Of a DNA stretch of 64,000 nucleotides, positions 1,848 to 18,691 are shown piece after piece (position 1 is the stretch's first letter; the number at the start of each line of letters is the position of its first letter). The notes under the pieces are model-generated. The model searched no databases. It was not told the DNA's origin and worked only from the letters and a program-made list of their open reading frames with translations. The stretch is from the IMG/VR virus record IMGVR_UViG_3300028025_003852, positions 8,815 to 72,814 of that record; one strand, written 5' to 3'. Made by a program: the position numbers and the translations under genes. Source of the DNA: a virus.

Positions 1848-1850
1848 CTG

Positions 1851-4401: not shown

Positions 4402-4415
4402 AATTATTATAACAT

Positions 4416-4937: not shown

Positions 4938-5218
4938 GATATATTAATTATATCCTGAGTTTTTAATAAAATTACTACATGTTGTATGAAACATTCCCTG
5001 GATACACAATATACTTAATTAATCGCTCTTAAATCGCGGCGTAAAATTCGGCGGCGTATAGAGATACCAAACACATACCAAATACCACTATCTAAATATG
5101 TGTGATATCCTGGATATAACCCAGTCAAGTGCTTTCGGAAACCAGCGTAGTTGGTTCTTTAAACCAGCACAAATTTTCTCCTTATGCAGATAGGGAGATT
5201 TTTTGTTATACTATATAT

Positions 5219-5428
5219 ATGGGAAAAGTTGGAGATGATGTAAGCATATGGGATTTGCTTGATCCTAATATGCCGAGAAGTACAAGAGAACTTATGGAAT
5301 CAAGATTGGCTATTTGTTATGAATGCCCTTTCTTTTTAAAAGGATCAAAGCGATGCTCCAAATGTGGATGTTTTATGAAGCTTAAGGTTTCTCTTGAACA
5401 GGCTAAGTGTCCTATGCATAAATGGTAA
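5219..5428 (+). CDS. Small zinc-binding protein
   Basis: C..C, C..CGC, CP..KW pattern; TATACT-N6-ATG gives a leaderless start at 5219. Confidence 0.65.
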   Translation: MGKVGDDVSIWDLLDPNMPRSTRELMESRLAICYECPFFLKGSKRCSKCGCFMKLKVSLEQAKCPMHKW

Positions 5429-5488
5429 TATATCCCTTTCAGGAGCAACTGCGTTGCTAATACCTCCGAAATTTGATACAATAGATCT

Positions 5489-5668
5489 ATGACATATTAT
5501 TCAGAAATCATCAATAAAGAAATGCTTGAACAAAACTTTGTTACTCAAAGAAAGACATCAAGACAGATTGCTCGTGAGTTTCACATCTCAAGAAGAATGG
5601 TTAATAAGTATCTTCTTGACTATGGATTTATTAATGTAAAAGATTTAGAAGATAATGATCTTCCCTAG
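5489..5668 (+). CDS. Small HTH DNA-binding protein (59 aa, below ORF track cut-off)
   Basis: KTSRQIAREFHISRRMVNKYL HTH; TG-A-TACAAT-N6-ATG. Confidence 0.6.
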   Translation: MTYYSEIINKEMLEQNFVTQRKTSRQIAREFHISRRMVNKYLLDYGFINVKDLEDNDLP

Positions 5669-6079
5669 CTACCCTCTGAGATTTGTAAAATGCTAGGAGA
5701 TATCTTTGGTGGCCTTGTTGCTATAGTAGCTATCTTTGCTTTGATTGTTTATCTATCAGGATTGTACTGATCCATACCCTGGACCTTCTGAAAAATTATT
5801 GTTTTTCGATTTGGACATTTTCTGAATATTTTGTATTTGTGAACGATACACACTTTACAGTAACAATTCAAGTAAATTAGTCCGCACACTGGTATCCGCC
5901 CTGCCTCAAAAAATATTCTAATCTATTTTTAGACTTATCGGCGTGTCGCATTGTCATTGTCCGTGGTGCATGATAGGTTATAGATAACAACAAAGAATGG
6001 ATAACAAAATGGAAACAGGTTGCTACTCAGAGTGTGAGTATGTGTGTGAGTGTGTGCAGTATAAGGTAGGTGCAAGCAA

Positions 6080-6217
6080 ATGAAGTGTGAAGTGTGTGAC
6101 TACTTTGACGCTAATGAAGTCATGGTATACAAGACAGAGATACTTAACTTATCTATGGTAGTCATGTGTGACTATTGCTTTCACGAGATATTGGAGATGA
6201 AGAATGAAACGGTCTAA
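6080..6217 (+). CDS. Small CxxC..CxxC zinc-finger early protein
   Basis: MKCEVCD...MCDYCF; overlaps neighbouring mini-ORFs 6009-6083 and 6204-6335. Confidence 0.5.
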   Translation: MKCEVCDYFDANEVMVYKTEILNLSMVVMCDYCFHEILEMKNETV

Positions 6218-6380
6218 GGCGTACTATGTAACAAGGGGTATTGCTAGGGCATTGACTCTATTGGTCAAAGCATCTTTGGTTGTTGGTGTAGTGTATGTGT
6301 TTGTGTTGTTGTATTGGGGAGCATTCTATCCCTAACGGCGTGTCGCCTTGACATACCCCCAGATCCAGGGCCGGGCGGCC

Positions 6381-6389
6381 TGTGGATAA
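6381..6389 (-). promoter_or_regulatory. DnaA box
   Basis: TGTGGATAA, perfect TTATCCACA on minus strand, directly after a junction repeat. Confidence 0.55.
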
Positions 6390-6480
6390 CTATGTTACCA
6401 TTTCGTTATAAGAAACACCCTATATGGGCTTTACATTGTCCGTGGTCTGTGATAGTCTGAAGACATAAGATAAAGAAACA

Positions 6481-6538
6481 GAGAGAGTGAGCCTAGCAAA
6501 TAAGGTCGCAAGACATGAGCCTAGCAAATAAATCTCTC
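6481..6538 (+). ncRNA. Candidate structured 5' leader with symmetric internal repeat
   Basis: GAGAGA/TCTCTC outer stem, two copies of TGAGCCTAGCAAATAA, GTC-GCAA-GAC hairpin between them. Confidence 0.5.
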
Positions 6539-6560
6539 AATAAAGAATAGGAAATAGAAA

Positions 6561-6755
6561 ATGACATTAGCAGAAACAGGAATCAAGCAAGACTTGACTA
6601 TCGGTAACGTGGTTGCCATTAGCCGTAAAGGTGTAATTCGTGCAAGCGGAATCATCGAATCAGTAAAGCAAATTAACCAAGACCGCTTTGACGTAACTTT
6701 CACTAACGGAAAGACTGAGTCAATGGTATGGGGAAAGACGCTCACCGTAGTTTGA
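6561..6755 (+). CDS. Small early protein, SH3/KOW-like
   Basis: 64 aa ORF downstream of promoter 6437. Confidence 0.6.
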   Translation: MTLAETGIKQDLTIGNVVAISRKGVIRASGIIESVKQINQDRFDVTFTNGKTESMVWGKTLTVV

Positions 6756-6802
6756 GTGTCAGACCCTCATGTTAGAATAAAAACAACAAGAAAGGAAAAC
6801 TA

Positions 6803-6946
6803 ATGTATATTGTAGAAGTAATCAAGAAGGGAGTCGGAGTCGTTGAGACTTTCGGCTCACGGTCTAAGGCAGAAGCAGAAGCACAAAAGAACGCTTATGC
6901 TCTCATGTATCCTGACCATGTAGTAATGATTGAATGGAGTAACTAA
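6803..6946 (+). CDS. Small early hypothetical protein
   Basis: GAAAGGA RBS and own promoter at 6757. Confidence 0.6.
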   Translation: MYIVEVIKKGVGVVETFGSRSKAEAEAQKNAYALMYPDHVVMIEWSN

Positions 6947-7000
6947 CGGCGTGTCGGCTTGACATACCCTGGCAATCGGGGGCCGGGCGATCCGGCCGCC

Positions 7001-7009
7001 TGTGGATAA
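7001..7009 (-). promoter_or_regulatory. DnaA box
   Basis: TGTGGATAA in the same context as 6381. Confidence 0.55.
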
Positions 7010-7112
7010 CTATTTACGAGAATTATTCTACGAGGCGGAAAACTATGCCCTAAAAACTTTTCACTGTCCGTCGCCCATGTTAGAATGAAGACGTAAAGAA
7101 AGGTAAACTAAA

Positions 7113-7292
7113 ATGGAAATCAAAGAAATCAGAAAGAACGGAATCGGAAACGGTTTCTCAGTAATCAACCCTCAAGATGGGTTCCGCAAGGATAACACCA
7201 TCTGGAATGGCACTTGCTCAGAGTGTGGTGAACGAGTGTATAACTCAGTAATGACTAAGTATGAGTGGAAACACCAGACCAAGTGTGTTTGA
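7113..7292 (+). CDS. Small early protein, putative metal-binding (CxxC, H..C)
   Basis: GAAAGG RBS, promoter at 7065. Confidence 0.6.
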   Translation: MEIKEIRKNGIGNGFSVINPQDGFRKDNTIWNGTCSECGERVYNSVMTKYEWKHQTKCV

Positions 7293-7341
7293 CTGTCTGA
7301 GGCTACTGCTAAAATAAAGACATAAAGAAAGGATAACTAAA

Positions 7342-7464
7342 ATGAAAGAATGTTTCTTGTGTGATGAGGGCACTACTGCCACTACTGTATCACCATACAA
7401 CTACCCCGTTTGTGCTAGCCACTACAGCGAAGACATCCGTGAATTCGCTACCGACTACTCATAG
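7342..7464 (+). CDS. Small early protein, CxxC/CxxH
   Basis: GAAAGGA RBS, promoter at 7294. Confidence 0.55.
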   Translation: MKECFLCDEGTTATTVSPYNYPVCASHYSEDIREFATDYS

Positions 7465-7495
7465 ACAATAACCAACAACGAAAGGTAAAACTAAA

Positions 7496-7657
7496 ATGAC
7501 AAATCACGAACGTATCTCTGGAATCTTAGAGACAATTCGAATTGCAAAGGGTGCAGAGTCTCACTCTGACGTTATGCCCTATGTGATAGGCATGATGACC
7601 GCCGTCCTCAACGACTCACAGCTTGAGGCTATGGAAGAGGTAGCCAAGCAATACTAA
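7496..7657 (+). CDS. Small early hypothetical protein
   Basis: GAAAGG RBS; ends just before a junction repeat. Confidence 0.55.
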   Translation: MTNHERISGILETIRIAKGAESHSDVMPYVIGMMTAVLNDSQLEAMEEVAKQY

Positions 7658-7810
7658 CATATTCCAGAAATGGAATGTGGGGCCGGTTGATCCGGCCGCC
7701 CCTCTTCCTATTTACGAAGGCTATTAAAAACCCTGGACTTTTGACCGCTGGACTTTTCACTGTCCGACGTATCTGTTATTCTTGTATTACAAACAACGAA
7801 AGGATAACTA

Positions 7811-7999
7811 ATGCGATTCGACCCTATTTTTGGTGAGGCTAACGAGATTGTTGGCTACCTCGACGACATGGGCAACGAGTGGACTGTCGAGCAGGTCGAG
7901 GACTACTGGGATGTCTCGGGCAACGAGCCTGACGGCATGTGGCTTGATGAGGACGCTCTCAACTCTATCGGCTGGGGTAGCGACGAGGCTTACTTCTAA
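7811..7999 (+). CDS. Small, highly acidic early protein
   Basis: GAAAGGA RBS; D/E-rich with a single basic residue. Confidence 0.65.
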   Translation: MRFDPIFGEANEIVGYLDDMGNEWTVEQVEDYWDVSGNEPDGMWLDEDALNSIGWGSDEAYF

Positions 8000-8113
8000 A
8001 CTACCCAAAGGGGGGCCGGGGGCCGTTATCAAATCGTTACATTGGATTACGTACATTACGTTTTCACTGTCAGTCGCTCGTGTTATTCTTGTATTACAAC
8101 GAAAGGAAAACTA

Positions 8114-8281
8114 ATGGACAAGCAAATACTGGTATCGGTTTGGGTGCTCAATCAGTGGGCAGAAAACGCTCGTGTTGAGCAGGAGTACTGGATTGAGAAC
8201 AACAACGACGGATTGGCAGGCTACTTCGGTGGTCGGGCTGCTGCCTATGAGTTTTTACTCGCTGAGTATGCCAAAGACTAG
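8114..8281 (+). CDS. Small early hypothetical protein
   Basis: GAAAGGA RBS before MDKQ; promoter at 8068. Confidence 0.6.
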   Translation: MDKQILVSVWVLNQWAENARVEQEYWIENNNDGLAGYFGGRAAAYEFLLAEYAKD

Positions 8282-8335
8282 TGTCATAGGCTACTGCTAA
8301 ACTAAAACTAACAACAACGAAAAGGACACAATAAA

Positions 8336-8521
8336 ATGATGACACGCAAAGACTATGTTTCAACTGCTAAGATTCTCAATGACCTTTGGCTTGATTTGCC
8401 AATCAGTAACATTGACCTGTTTGAGGATACCGTTATGGCTTTCTCTAAAATGTTTGCAGAAGATAACGAACGATTCGACCACAAGATTTTTTATAACGCT
8501 TGTTTCAAGGAGGAATACTAA
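8336..8521 (+). CDS. Small conserved phage protein (MTRKDY...DNERFD..F..AC)
   Basis: RBS, promoter at 8282; motif familiar from phage early regions. Confidence 0.65.
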   Translation: MMTRKDYVSTAKILNDLWLDLPISNIDLFEDTVMAFSKMFAEDNERFDHKIFYNACFKEEY

Positions 8522-8737
8522 TGAACCTGGTACCATTGTTTGCTGTAATGTTTGGGCTACTCGTAATCAATACCGTGATTATTTTGTACCTGTTGGCTAA
8601 ATACAAAGAAGCCAAGCATGAGGCACAGATAAACCGACCACCCTTCTAGGAGGGCCGGACGATCTTCGTTATAAAGTTGTTACGAAGACCTTACGAAACG
8701 CCCTGGAAATGTCCGAGGTATCTGCTAAGATTAGTAT

Positions 8738-8905
8738 ATGAAGAAAAAGACCAAGCACAAAGCAACAGAAAACAAAGCCTACATCGAGGCTATGCGTGAG
8801 TTGCGTCGCTCCAATGCGGCTACTGCCCATGACAACCGACCTAACCGTCAACGCACTCGTGGTGCAGTCAAGGCTCATGCTATTGGAGAATACAAGGCTC
8901 TGTAA
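8738..8905 (+). CDS. Small basic protein (ELRRSNAA motif), leaderless, stop inside tRNA-Asp
   Basis: TAAGAT-N6-ATG; 55 aa. Confidence 0.6.
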   Translation: MKKKTKHKATENKAYIEAMRELRRSNAATAHDNRPNRQRTRGAVKAHAIGEYKAL

Positions 8906-8971
8906 CTCAGTGGTTAGAGTGCCACCCTGTCACGGTGGAAGTCGCCAGTTCAAGTCTGGTCAGAGTCGCCA
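8896..8971 (+). tRNA. tRNA-Asp(GTC)
   Basis: Cloverleaf GGCTCTG/CAGAGTC, anticodon loop CTGTCAC, TTCAAGT T-loop, encoded CCA. Confidence 0.92.
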
Positions 8972-8972
8972 A

Positions 8973-9047
8973 TCCCCTTTAGCTCAACGGCAGAGCAACG
9001 AGCTGTTAACTCGTAGGTTCTTGGTTCGAATCCAAGAGGGGGAGCCA
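8973..9047 (+). tRNA. tRNA-Asn(GTT)
   Basis: Cloverleaf TCCCCTT/AGGGGGA, anticodon loop CTGTTAA, GGTTCGAATCC, encoded CCA. Confidence 0.92.
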
Positions 9048-9118
9048 GGATCCGGCCCCACCTTTTCACTGTCAGTCGTAGGTGTTACGATAGTATTACA
9101 AACGAAAGGAAATTAGCC

Positions 9119-9298
9119 GTGGCTTATGTGTCTGAGTATGGTAACTATGGTGGTGAGGGAGTAATTGTATTCCCAGACTATCAACTTACCCCTGAACAAT
9201 GGGATGAATTAGATATTCTTCCAGACAACGACAAGATGTCGTATGTTAAGCGTATTTTTGATGAAAACGAGTTTGGATATATGGAGTTTAACGACTGA
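9119..9298 (+). CDS. Small acidic early protein (GTG start), first of an overlapping mini-ORF run to 9836
   Basis: GAAAGGA RBS, promoter at 9070; coupled ORFs at 9298-9477 and 9474-9617. Confidence 0.55.
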   Translation: MAYVSEYGNYGGEGVIVFPDYQLTPEQWDELDILPDNDKMSYVKRIFDENEFGYMEFND

Positions 9299-9626
9299 TG
9301 AAACGTGAATCATACATTCCACCCAAGGGAATCTCAGAAAAAGAGTTCCTCACAATAGTTGCAAATGACCTAGTAGATATGCTAGTCTTAAAAGAGGTAG
9401 ACTTTACCTATGTTCCAAGTGTTCGTGACTTCATTGTCAAGTATTCCAAATCCCGACACCGAAAGGGTAGAAAATGAGAAGCAATCCATTCCCCGAAGAT
9501 GAACAGGCTACCGAAATCATGGAAGCCCTAGACGACTACTATGCAAATCCTCAAGAGTATTCATTCCGTGACCTTGAGGAAATCTTCCAAGACCGTGACC
9601 CATTCGAGTTTCTCTAAGGAGTAGTA

Positions 9627-9836
9627 ATGCCCAAGTATCGCATAAAGGCGACGGTAACGGTAGAGATGAACCTACCTGACGACTTCGACCCCAATAGGGA
9701 TAACGAAGGAGACATTCTCTATTCCCTTGATGGATACATTCGTGAAGATGGTGTAGACGGTTGGAGACTGTGGAAGGCCGCATTGGCTGACAATGGTATG
9801 TGGCACAATGACGCAGACTATAAAATCGTAGAATGA
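9627..9836 (+). CDS. Small early hypothetical protein
   Basis: AAGGAG RBS; 69 aa. Confidence 0.6.
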   Translation: MPKYRIKATVTVEMNLPDDFDPNRDNEGDILYSLDGYIREDGVDGWRLWKAALADNGMWHNDADYKIVE

Positions 9837-10210
9837 ACATACCCCTAATTGTTATAACAGGGTTTGTATGCTTTGTGGTTTTCTTTCCGCTAATTGCTTA
9901 TATCTTTTATGCCGTCGAGGTTTTGAGTTATAAGTTTGGTAACAAGGTTGACGATACAGCAAATTTGGAGGACTAGGGGGGCCGGGCCGCTTTCACTGTC
10001 AGAGGTGCGTGTCATAATGGTATTACAACGAAAGGAAAAATTATGCCGAATATGAAACTCATCCCCACTCGTGCAGGATATGTCTATGAGTGTGTTGAGT
10101 GTGACTTTCAACTCACACCTGAGCAAGCAGACGAACACGAATGTATGACCGTCTTTAGTTTTTAGTGTCAGACGCTACTGTTAGAATAAGAGAAACGAAA
10201 GGAAAACGCA

Positions 10211-10705
10211 ATGGGCTTGGATATGTATTTAGAGGTTCGCAAGTTTGTCGAAACCCACGATTGGGTAAACGAGAATGGCGAGTTTGTTCGTAAGGAAACT
10301 CCAGGAGCAGAGGCTATCAAGGTTGCAGGTCTTGAGAACCTTACTTCTAAAGAGGCTGTTGGCATTACTGTTCAGACTACCGCTGTCTACTGGCGTAAGG
10401 TCAACGCTATCCACAACTGGTTTGTAAATGTCTGTGCTAATGGTGTAGACGAGTGTCAGCAGATTCCTGTAAAGCGTGAGAACCTGCAAGCCTTGCGTGA
10501 CCAAGTAGAATTGGTTGTTCGCAAAAAGAATCCAGCAGTTGCTCAAGAGTTTTTGCCAACCTCATCAGGTTTCTTCTTTGGCTCAACTGAGTATGACGAG
10601 TGGTATTGGTCAGATATGCAATTCACTCTTGATGAACTCAACCGTGTGTTGTCTGAGACGGTAGACGACTATGGGATTGACTTCTTCTATCAGGCTTCTT
10701 GGTAA
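10211..10705 (+). CDS. Conserved phage protein (MGLDMYL / YWRK.N.IH.WF / GFFFGS family)
   Basis: Recognisable motifs, RBS, promoter at 10166. Confidence 0.75.
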   Translation: MGLDMYLEVRKFVETHDWVNENGEFVRKETPGAEAIKVAGLENLTSKEAVGITVQTTAVYWRKVNAIHNWFVNVCANGVDECQQIPVKRENLQALRDQVELVVRKKNPAVAQEFLPTSSGFFFGSTEYDEWYWSDMQFTLDELNRVLSETVDDYGIDFFYQASW

Positions 10706-10710
10706 CAAGA

Positions 10711-10735
10711 CGAGGGGTGCGACTCGATAACGCAT
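10711..10735 (+). ncRNA. H-type pseudoknot (variant)
   Basis: S1 CGAG/CTCG, 8-nt loop, S2 GTGCG/CGCAT. Confidence 0.4.
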
Positions 10736-10804
10736 AACCCTTCGGGGGCCGGGCCGCTTGATCTTGCAACTTTCACTGTCCGTGGCTACTGTTAGTATAA
10801 GTAT

Positions 10805-11527
10805 ATGACAAAGTTGATTCGCTCAAAAGACCGTAAAGTAACCAACGCTGTAACGCCTAACGGCAAGCAAGCCTCTATCGCTAACACTTTTGGTTTGCCT
10901 TCTGGCACTGCCTTCTCATGTCCAGGTGCTACTAGCGTATGCGAGACTATCTGCTATGCTGGCAAGTTGGAAAAGGTATTCAAGGGTGTGCGTATCAACC
11001 TAGAGCACAACTGGGCATTGGTCAAAGACGCTGACTATCTTACTATCTACGACCTTCTCTATGAAATGATTAGCGATTTTGTTTCTGATTGCGAACGTCG
11101 TGGTGCAGAAAAGTTATTCCGCATTCACTGGGACGGTGACTTCTTTAATGAAGAATACACCTATGCATGGCGTGATGTGATTTGTGAGTTTGAGGATGTG
11201 CAATTCTGGGCATACACTCGTAGTGCTTTCGCTGTGCCTATCCTAATTGACATTCCTAACCTTGGCTTCTATTTCTCAACTGATAGTGCCAACAAGGATT
11301 TGGCTATCTCTCTCAAAGAGACTCACGGTATCAAGTTGGCATACCTTGCTCAGACGTTTGCTATTGGTAAGGCTGACATTCTTGAGATTACTGGGCAGAC
11401 TGCTATTCCATGCCCCGAAAATAACAAAAAGATTCCTATGATTAGCGAGAAGGGTAGTGCCTGTGTGACCTGTGGGCAATGTATCTTCCAACGCAATGAT
11501 ATCCTGTTTTCTGCTACAAAGAAGTAG
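10805..11527 (+). CDS. Gp88-like protein, radical-SAM-like Cys motif
   Basis: SCPGAT..C...CYA, FRIHWDGDFF, FWAYTRS, C-terminal CP..C..C..C; leaderless start. Confidence 0.7.
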   Translation: MTKLIRSKDRKVTNAVTPNGKQASIANTFGLPSGTAFSCPGATSVCETICYAGKLEKVFKGVRINLEHNWALVKDADYLTIYDLLYEMISDFVSDCERRGAEKLFRIHWDGDFFNEEYTYAWRDVICEFEDVQFWAYTRSAFAVPILIDIPNLGFYFSTDSANKDLAISLKETHGIKLAYLAQTFAIGKADILEITGQTAIPCPENNKKIPMISEKGSACVTCGQCIFQRNDILFSATKK

Positions 11528-11702
11528 CGGAGGGCAGGGCCGGGTGATCCGGCCGCCCACCCCCAATGTAACAATTAGGTTACGATAGGCTGAAAATAGC
11601 CCCTAGGACTTGATATTGTGTGTGTTTTCTGTCATACTTGATATATCAGCAAGACCGCTGGTAATTAGGTTGGCTGGCTCGCCAACAGAAATGAGGAAGC
11701 AA

Positions 11703-11849
11703 ATGGGTAACATCAACATTGGAGACACCTTCACCACGCAGAAGTCTGGCGTATCGGGAACGGTTCAGGAAATCATCAAGAACGCAAACGGTTCTACTCG
11801 TATTCGCCTGTCGGTGAACGGTGCAGACCGTTGGACTACGGTCAAGTAA
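11703..11849 (+). CDS. Small SH3-like early protein
   Basis: GAGG RBS; IGDTFTTQKSGVSGTVQEI. Confidence 0.6.
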   Translation: MGNINIGDTFTTQKSGVSGTVQEIIKNANGSTRIRLSVNGADRWTTVK

Positions 11850-11865
11850 GGTCAGACCCTAGTCT

Positions 11866-11894
11866 GTCTGCTGGGCATCAGATAAAACTGCCCA
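11866..11894 (+). ncRNA. H-type pseudoknot
   Basis: S1 GTCTG/CAGAT, loop CTGGGCAT, S2 TGGGCA/TGCCCA. Confidence 0.55.
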
Positions 11895-11928
11895 CTCAAA
11901 TCCAAAAGCCAAATGAAAGGAAAACATA

Positions 11929-12378
11929 ATGGCTCGTTCACTTGCTGTGAAGATTCCCACCGCTACACTTATTGCTGACATTGAGGCAAGCATCGCTGAC
12001 ATTGAGGCTAAGGTTGCTACATACCCTGCCGACATGGAAGCATACCGTAAGGCACAGAAGGCACACCAACAGACTGTTCTCAAGACTGTTATTGAGGCTC
12101 TCAAGAACCCCGACAACATTGGCGAAGAGTATGGCTCAATCGTTCGTGTTCAGCAAAACCGTTATGGTAATGGTAATGTAGAGATTTCGGTAAACACGGA
12201 ACTGCTCTCTGTCCCACAGCCTCCCGAGTGTCCCTCTAACCCAAATGCCAAAGAGTCGTTTGGTCGTGACTACACTAGCCGTCTTGAGTTGCTGAAGAAG
12301 AACCTGAAGGTTCTCAAGATGACAAACCAAGAGGAAGTCAACGCCTCCACCTACAACACGGTGATTGACCTCCTCTAG
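11929..12378 (+). CDS. Early hypothetical protein
   Basis: 149 aa, GAAAGGA RBS. Confidence 0.7.
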   Translation: MARSLAVKIPTATLIADIEASIADIEAKVATYPADMEAYRKAQKAHQQTVLKTVIEALKNPDNIGEEYGSIVRVQQNRYGNGNVEISVNTELLSVPQPPECPSNPNAKESFGRDYTSRLELLKKNLKVLKMTNQEEVNASTYNTVIDLL

Positions 12379-12412
12379 ACTCCATACGCCCCGAAAGGGA
12401 TATGTGGAAAAT

Positions 12413-12440
12413 GACCTGAGCAGGTCTATGTAAACTGCTC
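12413..12440 (+). ncRNA. H-type pseudoknot
   Basis: S1 GAC/GTC, loop CTGAGCAG, S2 GAGCA/TGCTC. Confidence 0.55.
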
Positions 12441-12599
12441 GCCCTCTCCCCTGTGAAGCGTCTGGATAGATTGCTGGTAAACAGGGGAGGGGAGCCGGGT
12501 AGATCAGATCCGGCCCCGAATATAACAAATTAGTTACGATGTTATAAAAAAATAGGCCTAAAACTTGATATTGTCAGAGGTATCTGCCATACTGGGAAT

Positions 12600-12815
12600 A
12601 TGGAAAAAGTAAAGGGAACGTATTTTGTTGTGACTGGTGAGTCTTACTATGTGAAGGCTGACTCTGAGGAAGAGGCTGAGGCTGTCTTCAATGTAGGTAT
12701 GGGATATATGGATGAGCATAACTATCCTGACTTTGATACCGCCGATGCTTTCAGCCGTATCGAGTATACCGATACCTACACTACCTATGAGCCTATCACT
12801 GATTTCAGTGTCTGA
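12600..12815 (+). CDS. Small acidic early protein, leaderless
   Basis: CATACT-N6-ATG; V.A.SEEEA motif. Confidence 0.6.
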   Translation: MEKVKGTYFVVTGESYYVKADSEEEAEAVFNVGMGYMDEHNYPDFDTADAFSRIEYTDTYTTYEPITDFSV

Positions 12816-12854
12816 GGCTACTGTTACACTAAAGATACAACGAAAGGGAAAAGA

Positions 12855-13112
12855 ATGATTGACAAAGCATTTGGTTTGCAGGAAGCGGCTCGTAAGTCTG
12901 CTTTCGCTCCGTCTGTAAAGTTGTCTGCTCTGATTATCCGTGATGGATACCAGAACATGACACAGCAAGAAATGGAAAAGGCTCTCATAGAACTTGTGTC
13001 TGAGGCTGTTGTCGTTTCTTCCTACCACACTACGATGGTTCTTCTTGATGAGGAAGACCAGAACACACTCGCAACAACGATTGACGAACTACAAGAAATG
13101 GGGAACAACTAA
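12855..13112 (+). CDS. Early hypothetical protein
   Basis: GAAAGGG RBS, promoter at 12809. Confidence 0.6.
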   Translation: MIDKAFGLQEAARKSAFAPSVKLSALIIRDGYQNMTQQEMEKALIELVSEAVVVSSYHTTMVLLDEEDQNTLATTIDELQEMGNN

Positions 13113-13600
13113 TGTTGGACTATGAGAACATTGAAGTAAAAGATTTGCCACCGTCGCCTATCGAGCAGGGTACCCTTATCGGTATCGCTGTCGATACTAA
13201 GATTGAGGAACTTCAGAAAGAACTTGAGGGTGTCAAGGCAGAACTGGATGCCTCTCGTGCAAACGCTGATGACTGGCGTAACCGTCAGACATCTATGTAT
13301 AACCAACTTGGTGAAATGCAGGACAGACTCAAGGGTATCCTGACTGAACTGGTCAACTCTGGTTCCATTGAAAAGGAATACGCAAAGACCATTGCAGACC
13401 ACTGTGGCATTGAGGTTACTCGTTACATTGGTGTGTCTGGAAATATCACATTCTCTGCAAATGTCGAGGTATCGGTATTCGATGAAGATGACTTGGATAC
13501 ACACAACTTCAGTGCAACATACCTGTGCCTTGAGTATCAGGGTGAAGATGTCATTGACTTGAACTATGACATTGAGAACGTTGAAGAGGACTACAGTTAG
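13112..13600 (+). CDS. Acidic coiled-coil early protein
   Basis: 162 aa, coupled to upstream gene. Confidence 0.65.
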   Translation: MLDYENIEVKDLPPSPIEQGTLIGIAVDTKIEELQKELEGVKAELDASRANADDWRNRQTSMYNQLGEMQDRLKGILTELVNSGSIEKEYAKTIADHCGIEVTRYIGVSGNITFSANVEVSVFDEDDLDTHNFSATYLCLEYQGEDVIDLNYDIENVEEDYS

Positions 13601-13657
13601 TAGGCCTAATAGCTAGGGTAGGGACTTGTTAATTCCTTTCTTAGCCTCTACCCTCAC

Positions 13658-13685
13658 GGACCTGAGCATGTCCTTAAAAGGCTCA
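13658..13685 (+). ncRNA. H-type pseudoknot
   Basis: S1 GGAC/GTCC, loop CTGAGCAT, S2 TGAGC/GCTCA. Confidence 0.55.
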
Positions 13686-13832
13686 TTCTCATACCCAGGG
13701 GGGCCGGGCCGATCCGGCCGCCATTGTAACAATTGGGTTACGAACACCTAAAAATACCACCTAGGACTTGTAATTATCTTGTATCTGTGTCATACTGATA
13801 TAAGTAAACAAACCTCTAACGAAAGGCAACAT

Positions 13833-14852
13833 ATGCACGAATTGGAACAGGGCAAGAACGGCGAGGTTGCTTTTGCATCTTTCCGTGAGCCTGCTTGGCA
13901 TGGTCTTGGGACTGTGTTCGAGGAAGAAGTAAAGACGGCAGATATGCTGAAGTTGGCACACCTTGATAATTGGAATGTTCGTCTTGAGGAGATTCCTATT
14001 CCCGAGGGATTTGTCTCTGACAAGACTAACTATTTTGTTGCTCGCACTAACCCCTTCAACTCTGAGCAGAACGACATTCTTGGAATCGTTGGGCAACGCT
14101 ACAATACGCTTCAGAACGAATCACTGTTTGAGTTTGGTGACAACCTGCTAGACGGTGGTGGTCGTTGGGAGACGGCTGGCTCTATCAAGGGTGGTCGTGT
14201 TGTGTTCGGTGCTTTGGCACTTGAGCGTGAAACGGTGCTTGACCCTAATGGTGTGGCTGACAAGGTAAACACTTACCTTCTTGTCAACACATCGCACGAT
14301 GGGTCGGTGTCCATTATGGCGAGCATCACGCCTGTGCGTGTCGTGTGTGCGAACACTCTGAACATGGCTATCGGTTCAGGCACAGGTCACTGGCGTAGTG
14401 CTAAGCAGTCGTTCAAGATTCGTCACACTCAGACAGCCGAGGGTCGTGTTCAGGCTGCTCGTGAGGCTTTGGGTCTTGCCAATGACTACATGGATGAGTT
14501 TGACAAGATGGCTCAGGCTATGATTGAGACAGAAATCACGAATGACCAATTCCAGGAGATTCTTCGTGCAGTCTACCCCATGCCCGAAAAGGATGCTAAG
14601 GGTGCTATGTCAAAGTGGCAGACAAAGTTGGAACTCATCGAGGACATCTACGGTGGACAGTTCAACGACACGATTGCTGGAACGGCTTGGGGTGCATTGA
14701 ACGGCATCACCGAACGTCTTGACTGGTATCGTGCAGGACGCAAGGGCAACAGCGAAAGCGTGTTGGCTTCTGCTTCTGGCTTCGACCCTGCTATCAACGC
14801 TGAGAAGAATCGTATTCTCAAGATTGTTCAGGAACTCACAATGGCTTCCTAG
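13833..14852 (+). CDS. DUF932 family phage/plasmid protein (TIGR03299-like)
   Basis: PAWHGLG, ETAGSIKGG, NTSHDGS, TPVRVVCANTL, GTAWGALN motifs; GAAAGG RBS before MHELE. Confidence 0.85.
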   Translation: MHELEQGKNGEVAFASFREPAWHGLGTVFEEEVKTADMLKLAHLDNWNVRLEEIPIPEGFVSDKTNYFVARTNPFNSEQNDILGIVGQRYNTLQNESLFEFGDNLLDGGGRWETAGSIKGGRVVFGALALERETVLDPNGVADKVNTYLLVNTSHDGSVSIMASITPVRVVCANTLNMAIGSGTGHWRSAKQSFKIRHTQTAEGRVQAAREALGLANDYMDEFDKMAQAMIETEITNDQFQEILRAVYPMPEKDAKGAMSKWQTKLELIEDIYGGQFNDTIAGTAWGALNGITERLDWYRAGRKGNSESVLASASGFDPAINAEKNRILKIVQELTMAS

Positions 14853-15421
14853 TCGGTGACTCCCTGCCCTCCCTTGTGGAGGGTGGGGGGCCGGGTGATC
14901 AGATCCGGACTCTACTTAGTATATACATTCATTATATTTGTATTACGATGAAGTAAAAAATACGCCAGATTACGAATAGGTAACAATCACCCTGAAAAGT
15001 TGCATGTCAACCATGTTTTCTGTCATACTGAATATATGAATGAATTTGAGATAGCGATGCAAGTTGTATTGTCAGAGGCTCTTGATAAACTAGAGTCTAT
15101 ACCAGATGAAGAAATCGAAAGGTTGTATATATCCTAATGGGAATTTACTATGTTAAGACTGTTGTAGAGTTTGGTGGAGAAGTTATGGCTGATACCGCCG
15201 AGGAAGCAGAGAAACTTGGATGGCACTGGGATACTGAATTGCAGTATGACGGAGTCTACTCAATCGATGTAGAAGTTGTTGACGAGGATAACGATGAGGA
15301 GGACACCGAATGATGAAGGTATCGGAAGTGGAGCGTCTTATCGGTAATGCGTTCCCCAACATGCATGTGTTTGTAGATAAGAACAACGAGATTATTGTTT
15401 GCACAGGAGAGGAAGCAATCG

Positions 15422-15583
15422 ATGAGTAAGTATTCAATTAAGGTAGAACAAATTGGACATACCGTTGTAGAGGTTGAGGCTGAAGATGAGTTTCAGGCTG
15501 AAGACATTGCAATGGAGATGTGGGGCAATGGTGAACTTGACCATCTCTTTATCTTTGATGTAGAACTAATTGTGGATAACTAA
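15422..15583 (+). CDS. Small acidic protein (VEVEAEDE..A motif)
   Basis: GAGG RBS before MSKYS. Confidence 0.5.
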   Translation: MSKYSIKVEQIGHTVVEVEAEDEFQAEDIAMEMWGNGELDHLFIFDVELIVDN

Positions 15584-15816
15584 TGCGTATGCCAAAGGTA
15601 GCCGACCAAACTTGGAGGCGAATCTACCATTCCAGGGTAGCAGAGGTATACGAATCAGATAACGAGAACGACTACTACAAGGTAGTACTAGAAGGTATGC
15701 GACCAAAGTATTTCTATGGTGAGTTAGGCTTTCAGAATTACCAACGCTATGTGTATGACTTTGAGATGGCTACCCTGTATTCACAGGACAACGCCATGAT
15801 GAAGAAGTATCGGTAG
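15583..15816 (+). CDS. Hypothetical protein
   Basis: 77 aa coupled ORF. Confidence 0.55.
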   Translation: MRMPKVADQTWRRIYHSRVAEVYESDNENDYYKVVLEGMRPKYFYGELGFQNYQRYVYDFEMATLYSQDNAMMKKYR

Positions 15817-15833
15817 GCGTGGTAAAATAGAAT

Positions 15834-16067
15834 ATGACACCAACTATTTATACTAAGCCTAACTGTGTACAGTGTGATGCAACCAAACGTTACTTTGATA
15901 ACAAAGGTGTGGCCTACACTACCGTCGATATTACACAGGATGCGGACGCACTCGATCTACTTATTGCCGAGGGATTCAAGTCAGCTCCTGTTGTTAATAT
16001 AGATACACACTGGTGGAGTGGATTCCAACCAGACTTAATAGATAAACACATCGCTAACTATTCTTAG
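15834..16067 (+). CDS. nrdH: NrdH glutaredoxin-like protein
   Basis: TIYTKPNCVQCDATKR...SAPVV...WSGFQPD. Confidence 0.92.
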   Translation: MTPTIYTKPNCVQCDATKRYFDNKGVAYTTVDITQDADALDLLIAEGFKSAPVVNIDTHWWSGFQPDLIDKHIANYS

Positions 16068-16095
16068 TGTCCGACGCTAATGGTAAGGTGGTAAC

Positions 16096-16482
16096 ATGAC
16101 AGCAACTATAGACCTTTCCTATGAGGAATGGATTGACAAGTACAAGCCAGAGTTAGATGCCGACGGTAGCCCACGAATGTATGAGACCTATGGCAAAGAC
16201 TACGAGTATGTTCAGAGTGTAGACACTGAGTATCTTTGGACATGGACCGATGGTGGTGACTACAGTGTTATCACTAATGGATTTAGTTTTGTTAATCGCT
16301 TAGGCTACTACGTTTGTACCGTGCCATGTAGCACAGACATTTCTGTTGAGGTAGATGTGTATGTGCCAACAGAGTGTGAAGAAACCAAGATTCATTATTG
16401 GACAGAGCATGAGCGTTATGACGGAACCATGACAACCATTTGCTCAGAATGCGAGGTAGACAAAAATGACATTGACAGCTGA
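16096..16482 (+). CDS. Conserved phage hypothetical protein
   Basis: YETYG..., G..FVNRLGYYV motifs; leaderless from promoter 16068. Confidence 0.65.
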   Translation: MTATIDLSYEEWIDKYKPELDADGSPRMYETYGKDYEYVQSVDTEYLWTWTDGGDYSVITNGFSFVNRLGYYVCTVPCSTDISVEVDVYVPTECEETKIHYWTEHERYDGTMTTICSECEVDKNDIDS

Positions 16483-16855
16483 GGAGGAAGCCTTGCTTGC
16501 TAATCTAAACTATGACCTTAACATTTGGGACGAGGGTATGCACATGACCTGTCACCTACCAAAAGAAGAGCAGTACTCACAATGGAAGATTTCAGTACAC
16601 AACGTACATGAACTACCAGATGGTTACATTCAGTGTGGTGATTGGATTGAGGATATCAATATCTATCTTACCGAAGATGAGGTGAAGGCCCTCACACTTG
16701 GATGGGCACCTGAGCTTGGTGGAGACTACACTGGTGACAGTGATTTCTTCCTTGACATCGATGGATTCTTTACTATCTATAAAGACATTCCCGAGAGGGT
16801 AAAGCAAGAACTACTATCACTACCGCCGATTGACATTCAGAAGGTTGAATGGTAG
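16466..16855 (+). CDS. Acidic hypothetical protein
   Basis: GAGG RBS; 129 aa. Confidence 0.6.
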   Translation: MTLTAEEEALLANLNYDLNIWDEGMHMTCHLPKEEQYSQWKISVHNVHELPDGYIQCGDWIEDINIYLTEDEVKALTLGWAPELGGDYTGDSDFFLDIDGFFTIYKDIPERVKQELLSLPPIDIQKVEW

Positions 16856-16867
16856 AATGGAGAGACA

Positions 16868-17092
16868 ATGCGAATTACACAAAATGAACGAGCAGCCCAA
16901 AAGATTCTAGATGCTGTAAACGATTACACCTTAGACACATACATGATTGGATTTCACATCTTCCAGTTTGCACCATTGGATTTGTATATGAAATTGGATG
17001 AAATCATGGAAGGTGTTGACATGGCAATCAAAGCAGAGAATGAGAGAGTAGAGAAGAAGAATGAGCAACGAAAGCAAAACGCCCCTTTCTAA
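16868..17092 (+). CDS. Hypothetical protein
   Basis: 74 aa in operon. Confidence 0.55.
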   Translation: MRITQNERAAQKILDAVNDYTLDTYMIGFHIFQFAPLDLYMKLDEIMEGVDMAIKAENERVEKKNEQRKQNAPF

Positions 17093-17408
17093 CAAGTGTG
17101 ACATCTTGGCTGAGTTGTGGATTCAGTATAAGGGCGATGAGAACTTTGCAGACTTCATGCAATACAATGACTTGGGCTTGCCCCTTGCTTATGCAATATC
17201 AAATGACATTATCAAAGCAAGCGAACGAGCAACATTGTTTGTAGAAGAAACCTTTGCAACTCTCATGTATGCTCTTGCTGATGATTCAGAAGATAACATC
17301 ACTTGGACTGATGATGAAGGCAACGATGAACCAGAAGCATGGATGGCTCAAGAGTTTGAGACTCTAGAAGATGTATTCTTGTTCTTTGGAACTGACAGGG
17401 CAAAGTAG
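17061..17408 (+). CDS. Acidic hypothetical protein (F..YNDLGLPLAY motif)
   Basis: 115 aa, last substantial gene of the plus-strand island. Confidence 0.65.
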   Translation: MSNESKTPLSNKCDILAELWIQYKGDENFADFMQYNDLGLPLAYAISNDIIKASERATLFVEETFATLMYALADDSEDNITWTDDEGNDEPEAWMAQEFETLEDVFLFFGTDRAK

Positions 17409-17962
17409 CTGGTACCCTGCCTCCCTTCGGGGAGGTGGGGCCGGGCCTCCCAAACCACCAAAACACCTATATCCCAAAATACCTTTACGATCCGATCAAA
17501 AAATACGCCTGAAAGTTATTACGAAGAATCAAAAAATACGCCTGAATAGAAAGGAGCATCAAATGGAAATACCAATTGTAATATTTGTTATTACTATAGC
17601 AATTGCTATTACTGTTATTAATGTATGGTTCAAGAGACATTAGATCTACCCCCGGTTTTTGGGGGTCCGCAGGGTATTACGAAGAATCCAAAATTATCCC
17701 TGAAAAATACAAATTATCCCTATATATATAAACAAAATACATCATTTATCCTATATATACAAACACTTATTTGGTCATATTTGGATAGCCAGATAGCCCA
17801 ATTTGGATATTTGGGGGGTATGGGATACAGGGTTTGGGGTTTGGTGGATACTAGATGTAGTGGTTTGGCATTACGATGGCCCCATATATAGGGCTATAAT
17901 TACTCAAACAAATATCAAACCAATCAATTACAGTCAGATAATAAATCAAACAGTAAGATGTA

Positions 17963-18027
17963 TGTGCATAAAATGTGGATAAAATGTGCATAAGTTGTTC
18001 ACAATATGTGCATATCCCTGTGCATAA
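17963..18027. promoter_or_regulatory. Cluster of six DnaA-box-like 9-mers (origin-like or datA-like)
   Basis: TGTGCATAA 17963, TGTGGATAA 17974, TGTGCATAA 17985, TTGTTCACA 17995, TGTGCATAT 18007, TGTGCATAA 18019. Confidence 0.65.
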
Positions 18028-18475
18028 CTTAGCATATTGGGACAAAAAAGGATTAAGAACGACCTATTTTTTACGCCTGAAAGTCTATTGTATTATCACT
18101 AGGATTGGTTTTATATATAGGTATTATGATGGCTTTGTTTTATACCCCGAAAAATTACTGAGTTACTGATCCATGTGCCCTAGGCTTATAAGCATTGATA
18201 CTTCTATAACATTTAGCATGTACTGTCATATCTGTTCTATACTTAGGCTTACGATGCTTGCGTCTATAGGTTTTAGTCTTATCGTCTTTGTGTATTAGTT
18301 GATTGCAATACCAGCACATTTATTGCTCTTTTTCTCGAAGATCAGCCAATGCTCTCTCATACCCAATCTTCATTGCCACTACTTCTTCCCTATATGGATC
18401 ACGACCAGAGTTACTTTGAGTAAATATCTTTAGTGACTCATATGCTTTTTCCATTTGTTTTGTGCTTGGTGTCAT

Positions 18476-18691
18476 TTATAGTTCCTTGATTTGTTTCAAC
18501 AATACCGCCACTTGTCGTGGCGTAAGATTACCAATCACATCATCTGTAACTGGAGACTCATAATAGATACGATCATTCTGTAGCACAGCTAATTCGTATA
18601 GTCCCTGGTCGTATCCAATGCTTGCAGTGTTACGAATAACTGAAGCACCGTAACCATTCTCAAAGTACCATCTACGTTTGTAGTCTTTCAT
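18476..18691 (-). CDS. Conserved small phage protein (FENGYGASVI family)
   Basis: NGYGASVI...GLYELAVL...DDVIGNLT motif. Confidence 0.7.
   Translation of the reverse strand: MKDYKRRWYFENGYGASVIRNTASIGYDQGLYELAVLQNDRIYYESPVTDDVIGNLTPRQVAVLLKQIKEL

What the first reader, a model, noticed from the sequence alone, without database searches (positions are those of the whole stretch)
5939..17447. Modular early island: restriction-type palindromes confined to junctions in front of DNA-damage-type promoters (candidate cut-and-fire anti-defence system)
Seen: about 13 modules with a shared grammar: gene(s), often a hairpin, a GGGGCCGG(n)GATCCGGCC junction, GTTAC-type boxes, a promoter (mostly TGTCnG-N10-TAnnnT), then the next tiny genes. 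Between 5775 and 15950 my manual scan found 12 GATC sites (6362, 6989, 7689, 8661, 9049, 10760, 11546, 12502, 12507, 13711, 14897, 14902). All are in junctions and none is in a gene, whereas GATC is common elsewhere (five in the first 400 bp). CCGG is almost absent from the rest of the window. Known: GATC, CCGG, GGCC, GGNCC and CCNGG are common Type II R-M targets; mycobacterial PafBC is activated by ssDNA and drives TGTCGG-N10-TAnnnT promoters. Inference: the first-injected DNA may offer bait sites so that restriction cuts fall only between intact expression units, and the resulting damage switches those units on. Alternatives are methylation read-out, methyltransferase/REase decoys, or shuffling hot-spots.
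Basis: partly seen in the sequence, partly recalled or inferred. Interest (0 to 1): 0.92.

Follow-up and report, generated by a model that had tools for sequence, protein, structure and literature searches.

The report
Restriction words kept at phage cassette joints
In the early-gene block of an uncultured lake phage of Actinobacteria, the short DNA words that restriction enzymes cut have been purged from the genes and survive only inside a repeated GC-rich "border word" between gene cassettes, most likely because that inherited control element is kept for its own job, not as planned cutting points.

Summary
Observation confirmed. In 5939-17447, 19 of 19 CCGG, 12 of 13 GATC and 25 of 28 GGCC lie outside genes (20% of the stretch); the genes hold 1 GATC where 29-34 are expected and 0 CCGG. 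The words sit in a border word, GGGCCGG (11 copies, plus 2 variants), often paired as GGGGCCGG-NNGAT-CCGGCCGCC, 3-101 nt after a gene end and ahead of promoters that match the PafBC motif tGTCgg-N10-tAnnnT (14 strict copies, one strand).

This is the early arm of a WhiB-encoding phage family (at least 597 IMG/VR relatives). Its homologue lies in the roughly 12-kb terminal repeat of cultured Streptomyces BE-cluster phages. Early genes are purged of 4-bp palindromes family-wide.

"Cut-and-fire" is not supported. The nearest relatives use GGCGCC and have almost no CCGG. Sister lineages disarm the site by one letter (CCGA/TCGG). Streptomyces phage Genie2 has a CCGG word plus AAAAGATC in its linkers without any site avoidance, so the element looks inherited.

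One puzzle remains. Two complete relatives keep all 9 of their CCGG at these borders while CCGG stays purged elsewhere, so border sites seem protected or harmless when cut. The scan had noted the same pattern in other genomes of this family.

The parts
5939..17447 (+). Early-gene island: about 37 small + strand ORFs and 2 tRNAs, arranged as cassettes. GC is 44-46%, against 35-41% in the flanks.
5958..16089 (+). Span of 14 strict PafBC-type promoters (TGTCNG-N10-TANNNT) starting at 5958, 6437, 6757, 7065, 7294, 7761, 8068, 8710, 9070, 10166, 10777, 12809, 15070 and 16068. Near-variants start at 8282 and about 9996. An ATG lies 6 nt after the -10 at 8738, 10805 and 16096 (leaderless-type starts).
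11610..15029 (+). Span of four second-class promoters (TTGnnn-N16-18-CATACT) at 11610-11638, 12565-12593, 13768-13796 and 15000-15029. Three are preceded by a GTAAC-N6-GTTAC-type inverted repeat (about 11568-11583, 12522-12537, 13726-13741). ATG lies 6 nt after the -10 at 12600 and 15036.
   Evidence: (D5, D7, D8)
6362..6380 (+). Junction 1 border element: GATC 6362, GGGCCGG 6368, GGCC 6377. Its fold is no better than shuffles.
6978..7000 (+). Junction 2: the full inverted pair GGGGGCCGG-GCGAT-CCGGCCGCC (GATC 6989), -18.4 kcal/mol.
   Evidence: (D9)
7658..7702 (+). Junction 3: an upstream hairpin followed by GGGGCCGG-TTGAT-CCGGCCGCCCC (GATC 7689), -24.7 kcal/mol, z -4.2.
8010..8025 (+). Junction 4: border word only (GGGGGGCCGGGGGCCG), no stable hairpin.
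8649..8664 (+). Junction 5: GGAGGGCCGGACGATC (GATC 8661), no stable hairpin.
8896..9062 (+). tRNA-Asp (8896-8971) and tRNA-Asn (8973-9047). The 3' end of tRNA-Asn serves as the left arm of junction 6 (GGGGGAGCCA-GGATCC-GGCCCC; GATC 9049, CCGG 9052).
9976..9990 (+). Junction 7: border word GGGGGGCCGGGCCGC directly after a stop codon, no stable hairpin.
   Evidence: (D19)
10738..10763 (+). Junction 8 (upstream of the Gp88-like gene): CCCTTCGGGG, then GCCGGGCCGC, then TTGATC (GATC 10760). In L022 and L023 the orthologous place reads TCGGCGCCGATCC and GGCGCCGATC.
11510..11563 (+). Junction 9: a hairpin followed by GGGCCGG-GTGAT-CCGGCCGCCC (GATC 11546), -31.5 kcal/mol, z -5.7.
12484..12517 (+). Junction 10: GGGGAGGGGAGCCGG-GTAGATCAGAT-CCGGCCCC (GATC 12502 and 12507).
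13698..13722 (+). Junction 11: GGGGGGCCGG-GCCGAT-CCGGCCGCC (GATC 13711).
14862..14910 (+). Junction 12: a hairpin followed by GGGGGGCCGG-GTGATCAGAT-CCGGAC (GATC 14897 and 14902), -31.6 kcal/mol.
17415..17498 (+). Junction 13: a hairpin with a TTCG loop, then GGGGCCGGGCC (17437-17447), then GATCCGATC (17489 and 17494).
5940..6969 (+). GGCGTGTC boxes at 5940, 6337 and 6948 (as ACGGCGTGTCGnCTTGACATACCC at the latter two), and DnaA-box-like TGTGGATAA at 6381-6389 and 7001-7009. These are operator-like boxes between border word and promoter.
   Evidence: (D14)
10805..11527 (+). Gp88-family gene (PF17338). It served as the anchor for finding relatives.
13833..14852 (+). DUF932-family gene.

Best explanation
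The stretch is the early arm of a WhiB-encoding phage of low-GC freshwater Actinobacteria, probably of the first-entering, terminal-repeat type. It is built of small cassettes. Each long junction is a terminator-to-promoter linker with, in order: an optional stem-loop after the gene; a conserved GC-rich border word (GGGGCCGG, in 8 of 13 junctions paired or extended into a stable hairpin, in the full copies around NNGAT); operator-like boxes (GGCGTGTC, TGTGGATAA, GTTAY/TTACGA); and a promoter of the PafBC (-26 element plus -10) type, often with a leaderless start.

Restriction pressure has purged 4-bp palindromes from the early genes, and has purged CCGG, CGCG and GCGC from the whole genome. 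GATC, CCGG and GGCC survive at the junctions because they are letters of an inherited cis-element that is kept for its own function. That function is most likely a DNA-level protein-binding or insulating site, which can also fold as an RNA 3' hairpin. They were not installed as cutting points.

Shown here: the distribution, the depletion, the family-wide conservation of the architecture, and the replaceability of the words. Inferred: early or first entry, use of host PafBC, and protein binding at the border word.
For: Distribution and depletion.

Family: at least 597 IMG/VR relatives of the Gp88-like gene. 79 of 80 fetched loci carry 4-22 promoter motifs on the gene strand. In complete relatives the motifs cluster in one roughly 10-kb island.

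Host: WhiB is present in 4 of 5 records, then in 2 of 5 more, and in all 5 records that are at least 99% complete. No WYL protein was found in 5 records. Two small Actinomycetota MAGs that hold related contigs have RecA and WYL proteins, one with tandem WYL ORFs. One recA is preceded by TGTCAGTGGCATTTGCTATCTT followed by a LexA-like box.

Early genes are purged most strongly. Pooled GATC observed/expected is 0.40 in island genes, 0.79 outside and 1.01 in junctions. 63 of 68 loci with distinct Gp88 have a lower GATC density in island genes than outside.

The words are replaceable. 66 of 80 loci have no CCGG. G4, the nearest relative's record, has GGCGCC 15 of 16 and GCGC 15 of 22 in the island and 1 CCGG. 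Orthologous junctions differ: GGGCCGGGCGGCC against GGGCGCCGCC, and GGGGGCCGGGCC against TCGGCGCCGA. CCGG is replaced by CCGA or TCGG at all 4 L078/L086 borders that could be aligned, of L078's 8.

The element is older than the avoidance. Genie2 has CCGCCCCGG in 14 linkers in one orientation and 3 in the other, followed by AAAAGATCTT, while its terminal-repeat genes hold GATC 68 (55.8 expected) and CCGG 43 (51.7 expected).

The word matters more than the fold: 5 of 13 junction elements fold no better than shuffles yet keep GGGCCGG. Occurrence in both orientations (Genie2) and as an inverted pair (this phage) points to a DNA-level site.

Terminal-repeat location in cultured relatives.
Against: No binding protein was found. 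30 island proteins gave only Gp88, DUF932 and glutaredoxin above Pfam thresholds.

If the border word were only an ordinary site, restriction pressure should disarm it everywhere, yet G7 and G8 keep 9 of 9 CCGG at borders. G8 and L066 share 8 orthologous border CCGG across a p-distance of 0.186, while G8 has 0 CCGG outside the island despite 2172 one-letter neighbours. With 9-20 border sites present, continued purging from genes implies that border sites are protected or that cuts there do little harm.

Physical ends, the terminal repeat and the injection order of this contig are unknown (linear, about 67% complete). PafBC dependence is untested, and many promoters here also have a -35-like TTGAC or TTTCAC.
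Confidence: 0.55

Rival explanations
1. Cut-tolerant or cut-and-fire architecture. Sites are tolerated, or even useful, at borders because a cut there leaves each promoter-gene unit intact. The resulting ends are processed to single-stranded DNA, which activates host PafBC and fires the promoters.
For: The promoters match the PafBC motif, and PafBC is activated by ssDNA, gaps included (passages of PMC11804915). GATC is at neutral frequency in junctions (obs/exp 1.01) but 0.40 in early genes family-wide. In G1, 13 of 14 island GATC are non-coding by a crude ORF mask. Otherwise-avoided GC palindromes are restricted to the island in 4 of 7 genomes, with two different words: CCGG in G0, G7 and G8, and GGCGCC in G4. 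CCGG is still being purged elsewhere while border sites are kept. In cultured relatives the array lies in a terminal repeat, so two copies exist.
Against: 3 of 7 genomes (G1, G2, G3) and 66 of 80 loci have no such sites. Single-letter disarmed variants keep the element. Genie2 has the same words without any avoidance. AGCT, GTAC and CGCG stay depleted in junctions (0.39, 0.47, 0.04). Junction GATC contexts are heterogeneous. No ATP-dependent ligase or Ku was found in 5 records. No data on cutting exist: the public runs are kept as contigs only.
Confidence: 0.1
2. PeSL-like recombination joints. The repeated terminator/border-word/promoter cassettes are mainly crossover points for cassette shuffling and are homogenised within a genome by gene conversion. 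The restriction words are incidental letters.
For: The border palindrome is uniform within a genome and differs between genomes. Against L022, 9 of 10 internal ends of homology blocks fall within 20 nt of a gene end, promoter or border word (coordinates, compared by eye). Contigs of public runs join across junctions, for example 6421 to 8091 and 17438 to 14920 (weak evidence at 88% likeness). PeSL precedent: abstracts of PMC4122927 and PMC2839356 (listing).
Against: This does not explain why border CCGG is conserved at orthologous places over 19% divergence, nor why a specific word persists from Streptomyces phages to lake phages. It is compatible with the best explanation rather than exclusive of it.
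Confidence: 0.2
3. Pure RNA elements: the GC hairpins are transcription terminators or 3' stabilisers, and the words are stem letters.
For: They lie 3-101 nt after gene ends. 8 of 13 form stable structures, three with z of -2.8 or lower. Upstream hairpins with TTCG loops occur here and in Genie2.
Against: None of the 13 was reported by the hairpin-plus-T-run scan. 5 of 13 do not fold better than shuffles but keep the word. In G7 and G8 the CCGG often stands alone in AT-rich DNA. Both orientations occur in Genie2.
Confidence: 0.1
4. The border word is a stop or nick signal for a nuclease: a Chi-like attenuator of end-resecting enzymes, or the site of a phage nickase as in T5-type phages.
For: The G-rich word is strongly oriented: GGGCCGG 11 times on the + strand against CCGGCCC twice. 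It sits at every cassette border of a probable leading end. T5/BF23-type phages carry specific nicks and a terminal-repeat pre-early region (abstract start of PMC10644984 in the listing).
Against: There is no direct evidence. Genie2 has both orientations, and the letters of the word vary between lineages.
Confidence: 0.05

Closest known systems
Terminal-repeat early linkers of Streptomyces BE-cluster phages (Stanwilliamsviridae, e.g. Genie2, MK359332.1)
   Same: An array of about 26 small co-directional genes, including the Gp88 homologue. Each roughly 100-nt linker has a TTCG-loop hairpin, a GC-rich word containing CCGG (CCGCCCCGG), AAAAGATC, and then a promoter. The DnaE polymerase is 54-55% identical.
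   Different: The Genie2 promoters look like ordinary TTGCAT...TAGACT promoters, and the strict PafBC-type motif scores 0 there. Its genes do not avoid GATC or CCGG. For this contig the terminal repeat is not shown.
PeSL (promoter-early stem-loop) cassettes of T4-type phages (PMC2839356, PMC4122927)
   Same: Composite terminator/promoter repeats lie between small, variable early ORFs. Differences between relatives begin and end at them.
   Different: The phage group, host and promoter type are all different. There is an extra border word and operator boxes. No link to restriction words has been described for PeSLs (abstracts only seen).
First-step-transfer / left-terminal-repeat pre-early region of phage T5, and leading regions of Autographiviridae
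   Same: The early-entering DNA is the part where restriction sites matter. Sites elsewhere are tolerated (10.1101/866236 passages; PMC12455610 abstract). Here GATC, AGCT and GTAC are depleted in island genes but not in the rest of the contig. A DnaA-box cluster lies at the island's end, as in the T5 injection-stop region.
   Different: Two-step injection and the physical ends are unknown here. CCGG shows the reverse pattern: absent elsewhere, present at island borders.
PafBC-dependent (RecA-NDp) promoters of Actinobacteria (PMC8635444)
   Same: TGTCNG-N10-TANNNT with the GTC triplet at the same spacing. Relatives read TGTC(G/A)GTGG. A candidate host-group MAG has the same motif at recA.
   Different: They are found on a phage in arrays of 4-22. 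Position 5 is variable and many copies here also have a -35-like hexamer. Dependence on PafBC is untested. My searches listed no paper that ties PafBC promoters to phage early genes.

Membership tests
PafBC-dependent promoter (RecA-NDp) | A -26 element tGTCgg with an invariant GTC triplet | tested here: met
   14 strict TGTCNG sites, all on the + strand within 5958-16068. Motif taken from PMC8635444.
PafBC-dependent promoter (RecA-NDp) | Exactly 10 nt between the -26 element and a tAnnnT -10 | tested here: met
   The spacing is built into the pattern. There are 14 hits on the + strand, all in the island, and 1 on the - strand, in 72.8 kb. ATG lies 6 nt after the -10 at five promoters.
PafBC-dependent promoter (RecA-NDp) | No -35 element | tested here: inconclusive
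   Many copies here read TTTCAC, TTTGAC or TTTGAG just upstream. Relatives mostly read AAAA before TGTC.
PafBC-dependent promoter (RecA-NDp) | Transcription depends on PafBC bound to ssDNA | not testable with these tools
   No WYL protein was found in 5 phage records. Candidate host-group MAGs have WYL ORFs.
PeSL cassettes | A composite stem-loop plus early promoter repeated between small ORFs | tested here: met
   13 junctions and 18-20 promoters.
PeSL cassettes | Indels and replacements between close relatives begin and end at the cassettes | tested here: inconclusive
   9 of 10 block ends against L022 lie within 20 nt of a gene end, promoter or border word (compared by eye). No control against ordinary gene boundaries was run.
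PeSL cassettes | T4-type phage with a sigma-70 early promoter consensus | tested here: not met
   The closest cultured relatives are Streptomyces siphophages, and the promoter motif is different.
T5-type first-step-transfer region | Lies in a long direct terminal repeat at the leading end | tested here: inconclusive
   The contig is linear and about 67% complete. In cultured relatives the homologous array lies in the terminal repeat.
T5-type first-step-transfer region | Restriction sites are counter-selected in this region but tolerated elsewhere | tested here: met
   Island CDS hold GATC 1 vs 29-34 expected and AGCT 4 vs 32-34. The rest of the contig holds GATC 213 vs 220 and AGCT 294 vs 220-316.
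Intrinsic (hairpin plus U-tract) terminator | A GC-rich stem-loop followed by a T-run | tested here: not met
   None of the 13 junction elements is among the 10 terminator-like sites reported for 5000-19000.

The most novel reading that the evidence does not exclude
Border sites are deliberately survivable break points. A restriction enzyme (or another end-making attack) that hits the first-entering DNA can cut only between intact promoter-gene units. The ends are resected to ssDNA, host PafBC is switched on, and the PafBC-type promoters fire. In this way the defence itself boosts expression of the phage's early, presumably anti-defence, genes. The second copy in the terminal repeat, or re-ligation of the cohesive ends, restores the genome.
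Probability: 0.1. Interest if true: 0.9.

Novelty: new variant of a known kind. Interest (0 to 1): 0.6.

Why it matters
The stretch shows three layers of the phage-host arms race in one place. First, a phage family purges restriction words to zero: relative G3 has no AGCT, CCGG, CGCG, GCGC or GGCC in 107 kb. Second, the purge is graded by position, and is strongest in the early arm. Third, one cis-element resists the purge.

The surviving border sites give a concrete, testable question: are they protected, or harmless when cut? The same element exists in cultured Streptomyces phages, so it can be tested at the bench.

Separately, arrays of PafBC-type promoters on a phage would mean that early transcription is wired to the host's ssDNA-sensing damage activator. 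My literature searches found no paper describing this.

Tried and rejected
A near-identity DNA search of the island against cultured phages found nothing. An exact-pattern scan of IMG/VR for the full hairpin gave 18 loci, of which only L019 is a relative; the others are high-GC chance matches. Rfam gave only tRNAs.

Relaxed selection (the host lacks a CCGG enzyme) is rejected for the G8 lineage. There are 8 orthologous border CCGG and a p-distance of 0.186 to L066, yet 0 CCGG outside the island despite 2172 one-letter neighbours. My estimate of 20 or more expected neutral gains is an inference.

Deamination of methylated CCGG as the cause of depletion: no specific excess of CCAG or CTGG (1.0-1.25); all neighbours are mildly raised.

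A single function for GATC at junctions: the contexts of 361 junction GATC are heterogeneous.

A tRNA-like T-arm reading of the hairpin was rejected by inspection. A G-quadruplex reading was considered and not tested.

MAG names of related contigs are mixed (Bifidobacterium, Bacteroidetes, cyanobacterium, Actinomycetota and others), so binning does not name a host. WhiB is the better host marker.

No N6/N4 methyltransferase, WYL protein, ATP-dependent ligase or Ku was found in 5 records each; other methylase families were not searched. Pfam and PHROGs name no regulator among 30 island proteins.

Sequencing runs: no RNA holder was listed and all 24 runs are kept as contigs, so termini, depth and methylation could not be read. 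The recA upstream region of MAG G005 has no strict PafBC motif.

Supplementary files of papers were not opened. The supplements of PMC8635444 and its predecessor may list PafBC sites that bear on the motif comparison.

Full report
WHAT IS THERE. The window is bases 8815-72814 of a 72.8-kb linear IMG/VR virus contig, about 67% complete and 40.5% GC. Its DnaE-type polymerase is 54-55% identical to those of Streptomyces BE-cluster phages. The contig carries a WhiB gene, the usual marker of phages of Actinobacteria (PMC10914622 passages). Positions 5939-17447 form a + strand island of about 37 small ORFs and two tRNAs, with higher GC than its flanks.

A 13th, at 15954, lies in a glutaredoxin-like gene. 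All 19 CCGG of the island and 25 of 28 GGCC are non-coding, although non-coding DNA is only 20% of the island. The whole contig has 21 CCGG.

Island coding DNA (9067 nt) holds far fewer sites than expected:
- GATC: 1, against 29-34 expected.
- CCGG: 0, against 11-22.
- AGCT: 4, against 32-34.
- GTAC: 12, against 34-40.

The rest of the contig does not avoid GATC (213 against 220) or AGCT. It does avoid CCGG, CGCG and GCGC (2, 4 and 6, against 101 each by composition).

The junction sites are copies of one cassette. GGGCCGG occurs 11 times, only in the island. It lies 3-101 nt after a gene end and 17-112 nt before the next promoter. In the fullest copies it is paired as GGGGCCGG-NNGAT-CCGGCCGCC (D9). 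Eight of 13 junction elements fold stably. Five fold no better than shuffles but still keep the word. None was reported by the hairpin-plus-T-run scan.

PROMOTERS. The motif TGTCNG-N10-TANNNT occurs 14 times on the + strand, all at 5958-16068, and once on the other strand elsewhere. This is the published PafBC motif tGTCgg(N10)tA(N3)T, with the GTC triplet and the same spacing (PMC8635444 passages). An ATG lies 6 nt after the -10 at five promoters, which fits leaderless starts (my reading from general knowledge of Actinobacteria). Four further promoters belong to a second class, three of them preceded by a GTAAC-N6-GTTAC repeat.

No WYL-domain protein is encoded in 5 related records, 3 of them complete. 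Two small Actinomycetota MAGs that hold related contigs have RecA and WYL ORFs. One recA is preceded by TGTCAGTGGCATTTGCTATCTT followed by a LexA-like box. Binning does not prove that these are hosts.

THE FAMILY. The Gp88-like gene has at least 597 relatives in IMG/VR. Of 80 fetched loci, 79 carry 4-22 promoter motifs on the gene strand. In complete relatives the motifs form one island of about 10 kb.

Pooled over 81 loci, the nine most depleted of all 256 4-mers in island genes are palindromes: CGCG 0.02, CCGG 0.15, AGCT 0.28, GATC 0.40, ACGT 0.42, GCGC 0.43, GGCC 0.45, GTAC 0.49 and TCGA 0.50. Outside the island the depletion is weaker (GATC 0.79). In junctions GATC stands at 1.01.

The pattern holds in 60 of 68 loci (junction above gene density) and 63 of 68 loci (gene below outside density) among those with distinct Gp88 sequences. 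Complete relatives show total purges. G1 has no CCGG, CGCG or GCGC in 117 kb. G3 has no AGCT, CCGG, CGCG, GCGC or GGCC in 107 kb. This graded purge resembles what is reported for T5 first-step-transfer DNA and for leading regions of Autographiviridae.

ARE THE WORDS THE POINT? Mostly not.
- 66 of 80 loci have no CCGG at all.
- The nearest relatives (Gp88 94-95% identical) have GGCGCC-type palindromes at orthologous junctions. In their record, GGCGCC is 15 of 16 and GCGC 15 of 22 inside the island, with a single CCGG.
- Other lineages have GGGGGCCCCC, GGGGCTCGGGCCCC or GGGCCCGGGCCC.
- Between L078 and L086, all 4 orthologous borders that could be aligned (of L078's 8 CCGG sites) read CCGG in one and CCGA or TCGG in the other.
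- The cultured Streptomyces phage Genie2 has the same linker plan: a TTCG-loop hairpin, then CCGCCCCGG (14 copies in one orientation and 3 in the other), then AAAAGATCTT, then a promoter. Its terminal-repeat genes do not avoid GATC (68 against 56 expected) or CCGG (43 against 52).

So the element, with CCGG and GATC in it, appears to be older than the avoidance. Its occurrence in both orientations, and here as an inverted pair, suggests a DNA-level binding site.

WHAT STAYS UNEXPLAINED. In complete relatives G7 (100 kb) and G8 (102 kb), all 9 CCGG lie at island borders. They often stand alone in AT-rich DNA, between the upstream hairpin and the operator boxes. G8 and L066 differ by a p-distance of 0.186 yet share 8 orthologous border CCGG. 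G8 has 2172 one-letter neighbours of CCGG and not one CCGG outside the island. There is no deamination signature.

So CCGG is still being removed elsewhere while border copies persist. On the Gp88 tree such lineages are scattered. If 9-20 border sites were cut lethally, one more site in a gene would cost almost nothing, and the purge would lapse (inference). Border sites therefore seem either protected or tolerable when cut. It is why I keep that rival at 0.1 rather than near zero.

Against it: three of seven genomes lack such sites. AGCT, GTAC and CGCG stay depleted in junctions. No ATP-dependent ligase or Ku was found.

POSITION IN THE GENOME. In Genie2 the array of about 26 small co-directional genes, with the Gp88 homologue, lies in a direct terminal repeat of about 12 kb. 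The same genes are annotated at both ends of the record. Eight Streptomyces phage records in the spread listing show the Gp88 homologue at two places per record. For this contig the ends are unknown. A cluster of DnaA-box-like sites (17963-18027) closes the island, recalling the DnaA boxes of the T5 injection-stop region.

SHUFFLING. Against L022, 9 of 10 internal ends of homology blocks fall within 20 nt of a gene end, promoter or border word (compared by eye). Contigs of four public runs show joints at junctions (weak, at 88% likeness). This is PeSL-like behaviour, but I ran no control against ordinary gene boundaries.

VERDICT. The structure is a new variant of known kinds: terminator-promoter cassettes in a restriction-proofed early arm. 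It has two unusual traits, PafBC-type promoters and a border word that keeps otherwise purged restriction words. Earlier notes of this scan describe the same pattern in other genomes of the family and reached the same main reading.

Noticed in passing
window 17963-18027: A cluster of DnaA-box-like sites (four within 65 bp at 1 mismatch or fewer, all on the - strand) in roughly 700 bp of repeat-rich non-coding DNA, where the island ends and - strand genes begin. It could be a replication origin or an injection-stop-like site.
   Followed up: partly
window 5940, 6337, 6948, 54255; L134 position 1264: The box (A)ACGGCGTGTCG of the phage junctions also stands just upstream of the LexA-like box before recA in a small Actinomycetota MAG (13 identical letters). 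Family-wide, GGCGTGTC is 3.5-5.6-fold enriched in junctions.
   Followed up: partly
G3 (L115-L120), G1 (L109-L114), G7, G8: Complete relatives have absolute zeros for several 4-bp palindromes: G3 has none of AGCT, CCGG, CGCG, GCGC or GGCC in 107 kb, and G8 has none of AGCT, CGCG or GGCC. The set differs between phages.
   Followed up: partly
window 8738, 10805, 12600, 15036, 16096: Start codons lie exactly 6 nt after the -10 hexamer, which suggests leaderless mRNAs.
   Followed up: no
window 8973-9062: The 3' end of tRNA-Asn doubles as the left arm of a border element (GGGGGAGCCA-GGATCC-GGCCCC). Two tRNAs sit inside the early array.
   Followed up: no
window 5997-6083 and 7342-7464: Tiny cysteine-rich ORFs (24-40 aa) among the first cassettes. 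No family match was found for 7342-7464; 5997-6083 was not searched.
   Followed up: no
L163 (Genie2 1-13000): CTAG is absent from the terminal-repeat genes (0 against 7.3 expected) but occurs 26 times in the linkers, mostly inside the -10-like TAGACT.
   Followed up: no
window 30807-30980 (- strand): A WhiB-family gene, also present in all 5 near-complete or complete relatives searched.
   Followed up: partly
L065 5413-5426: A distant relative has CCGG-TGATCT-CCGG, the same inverted CCGG pair around GATC as in this window.
   Followed up: no
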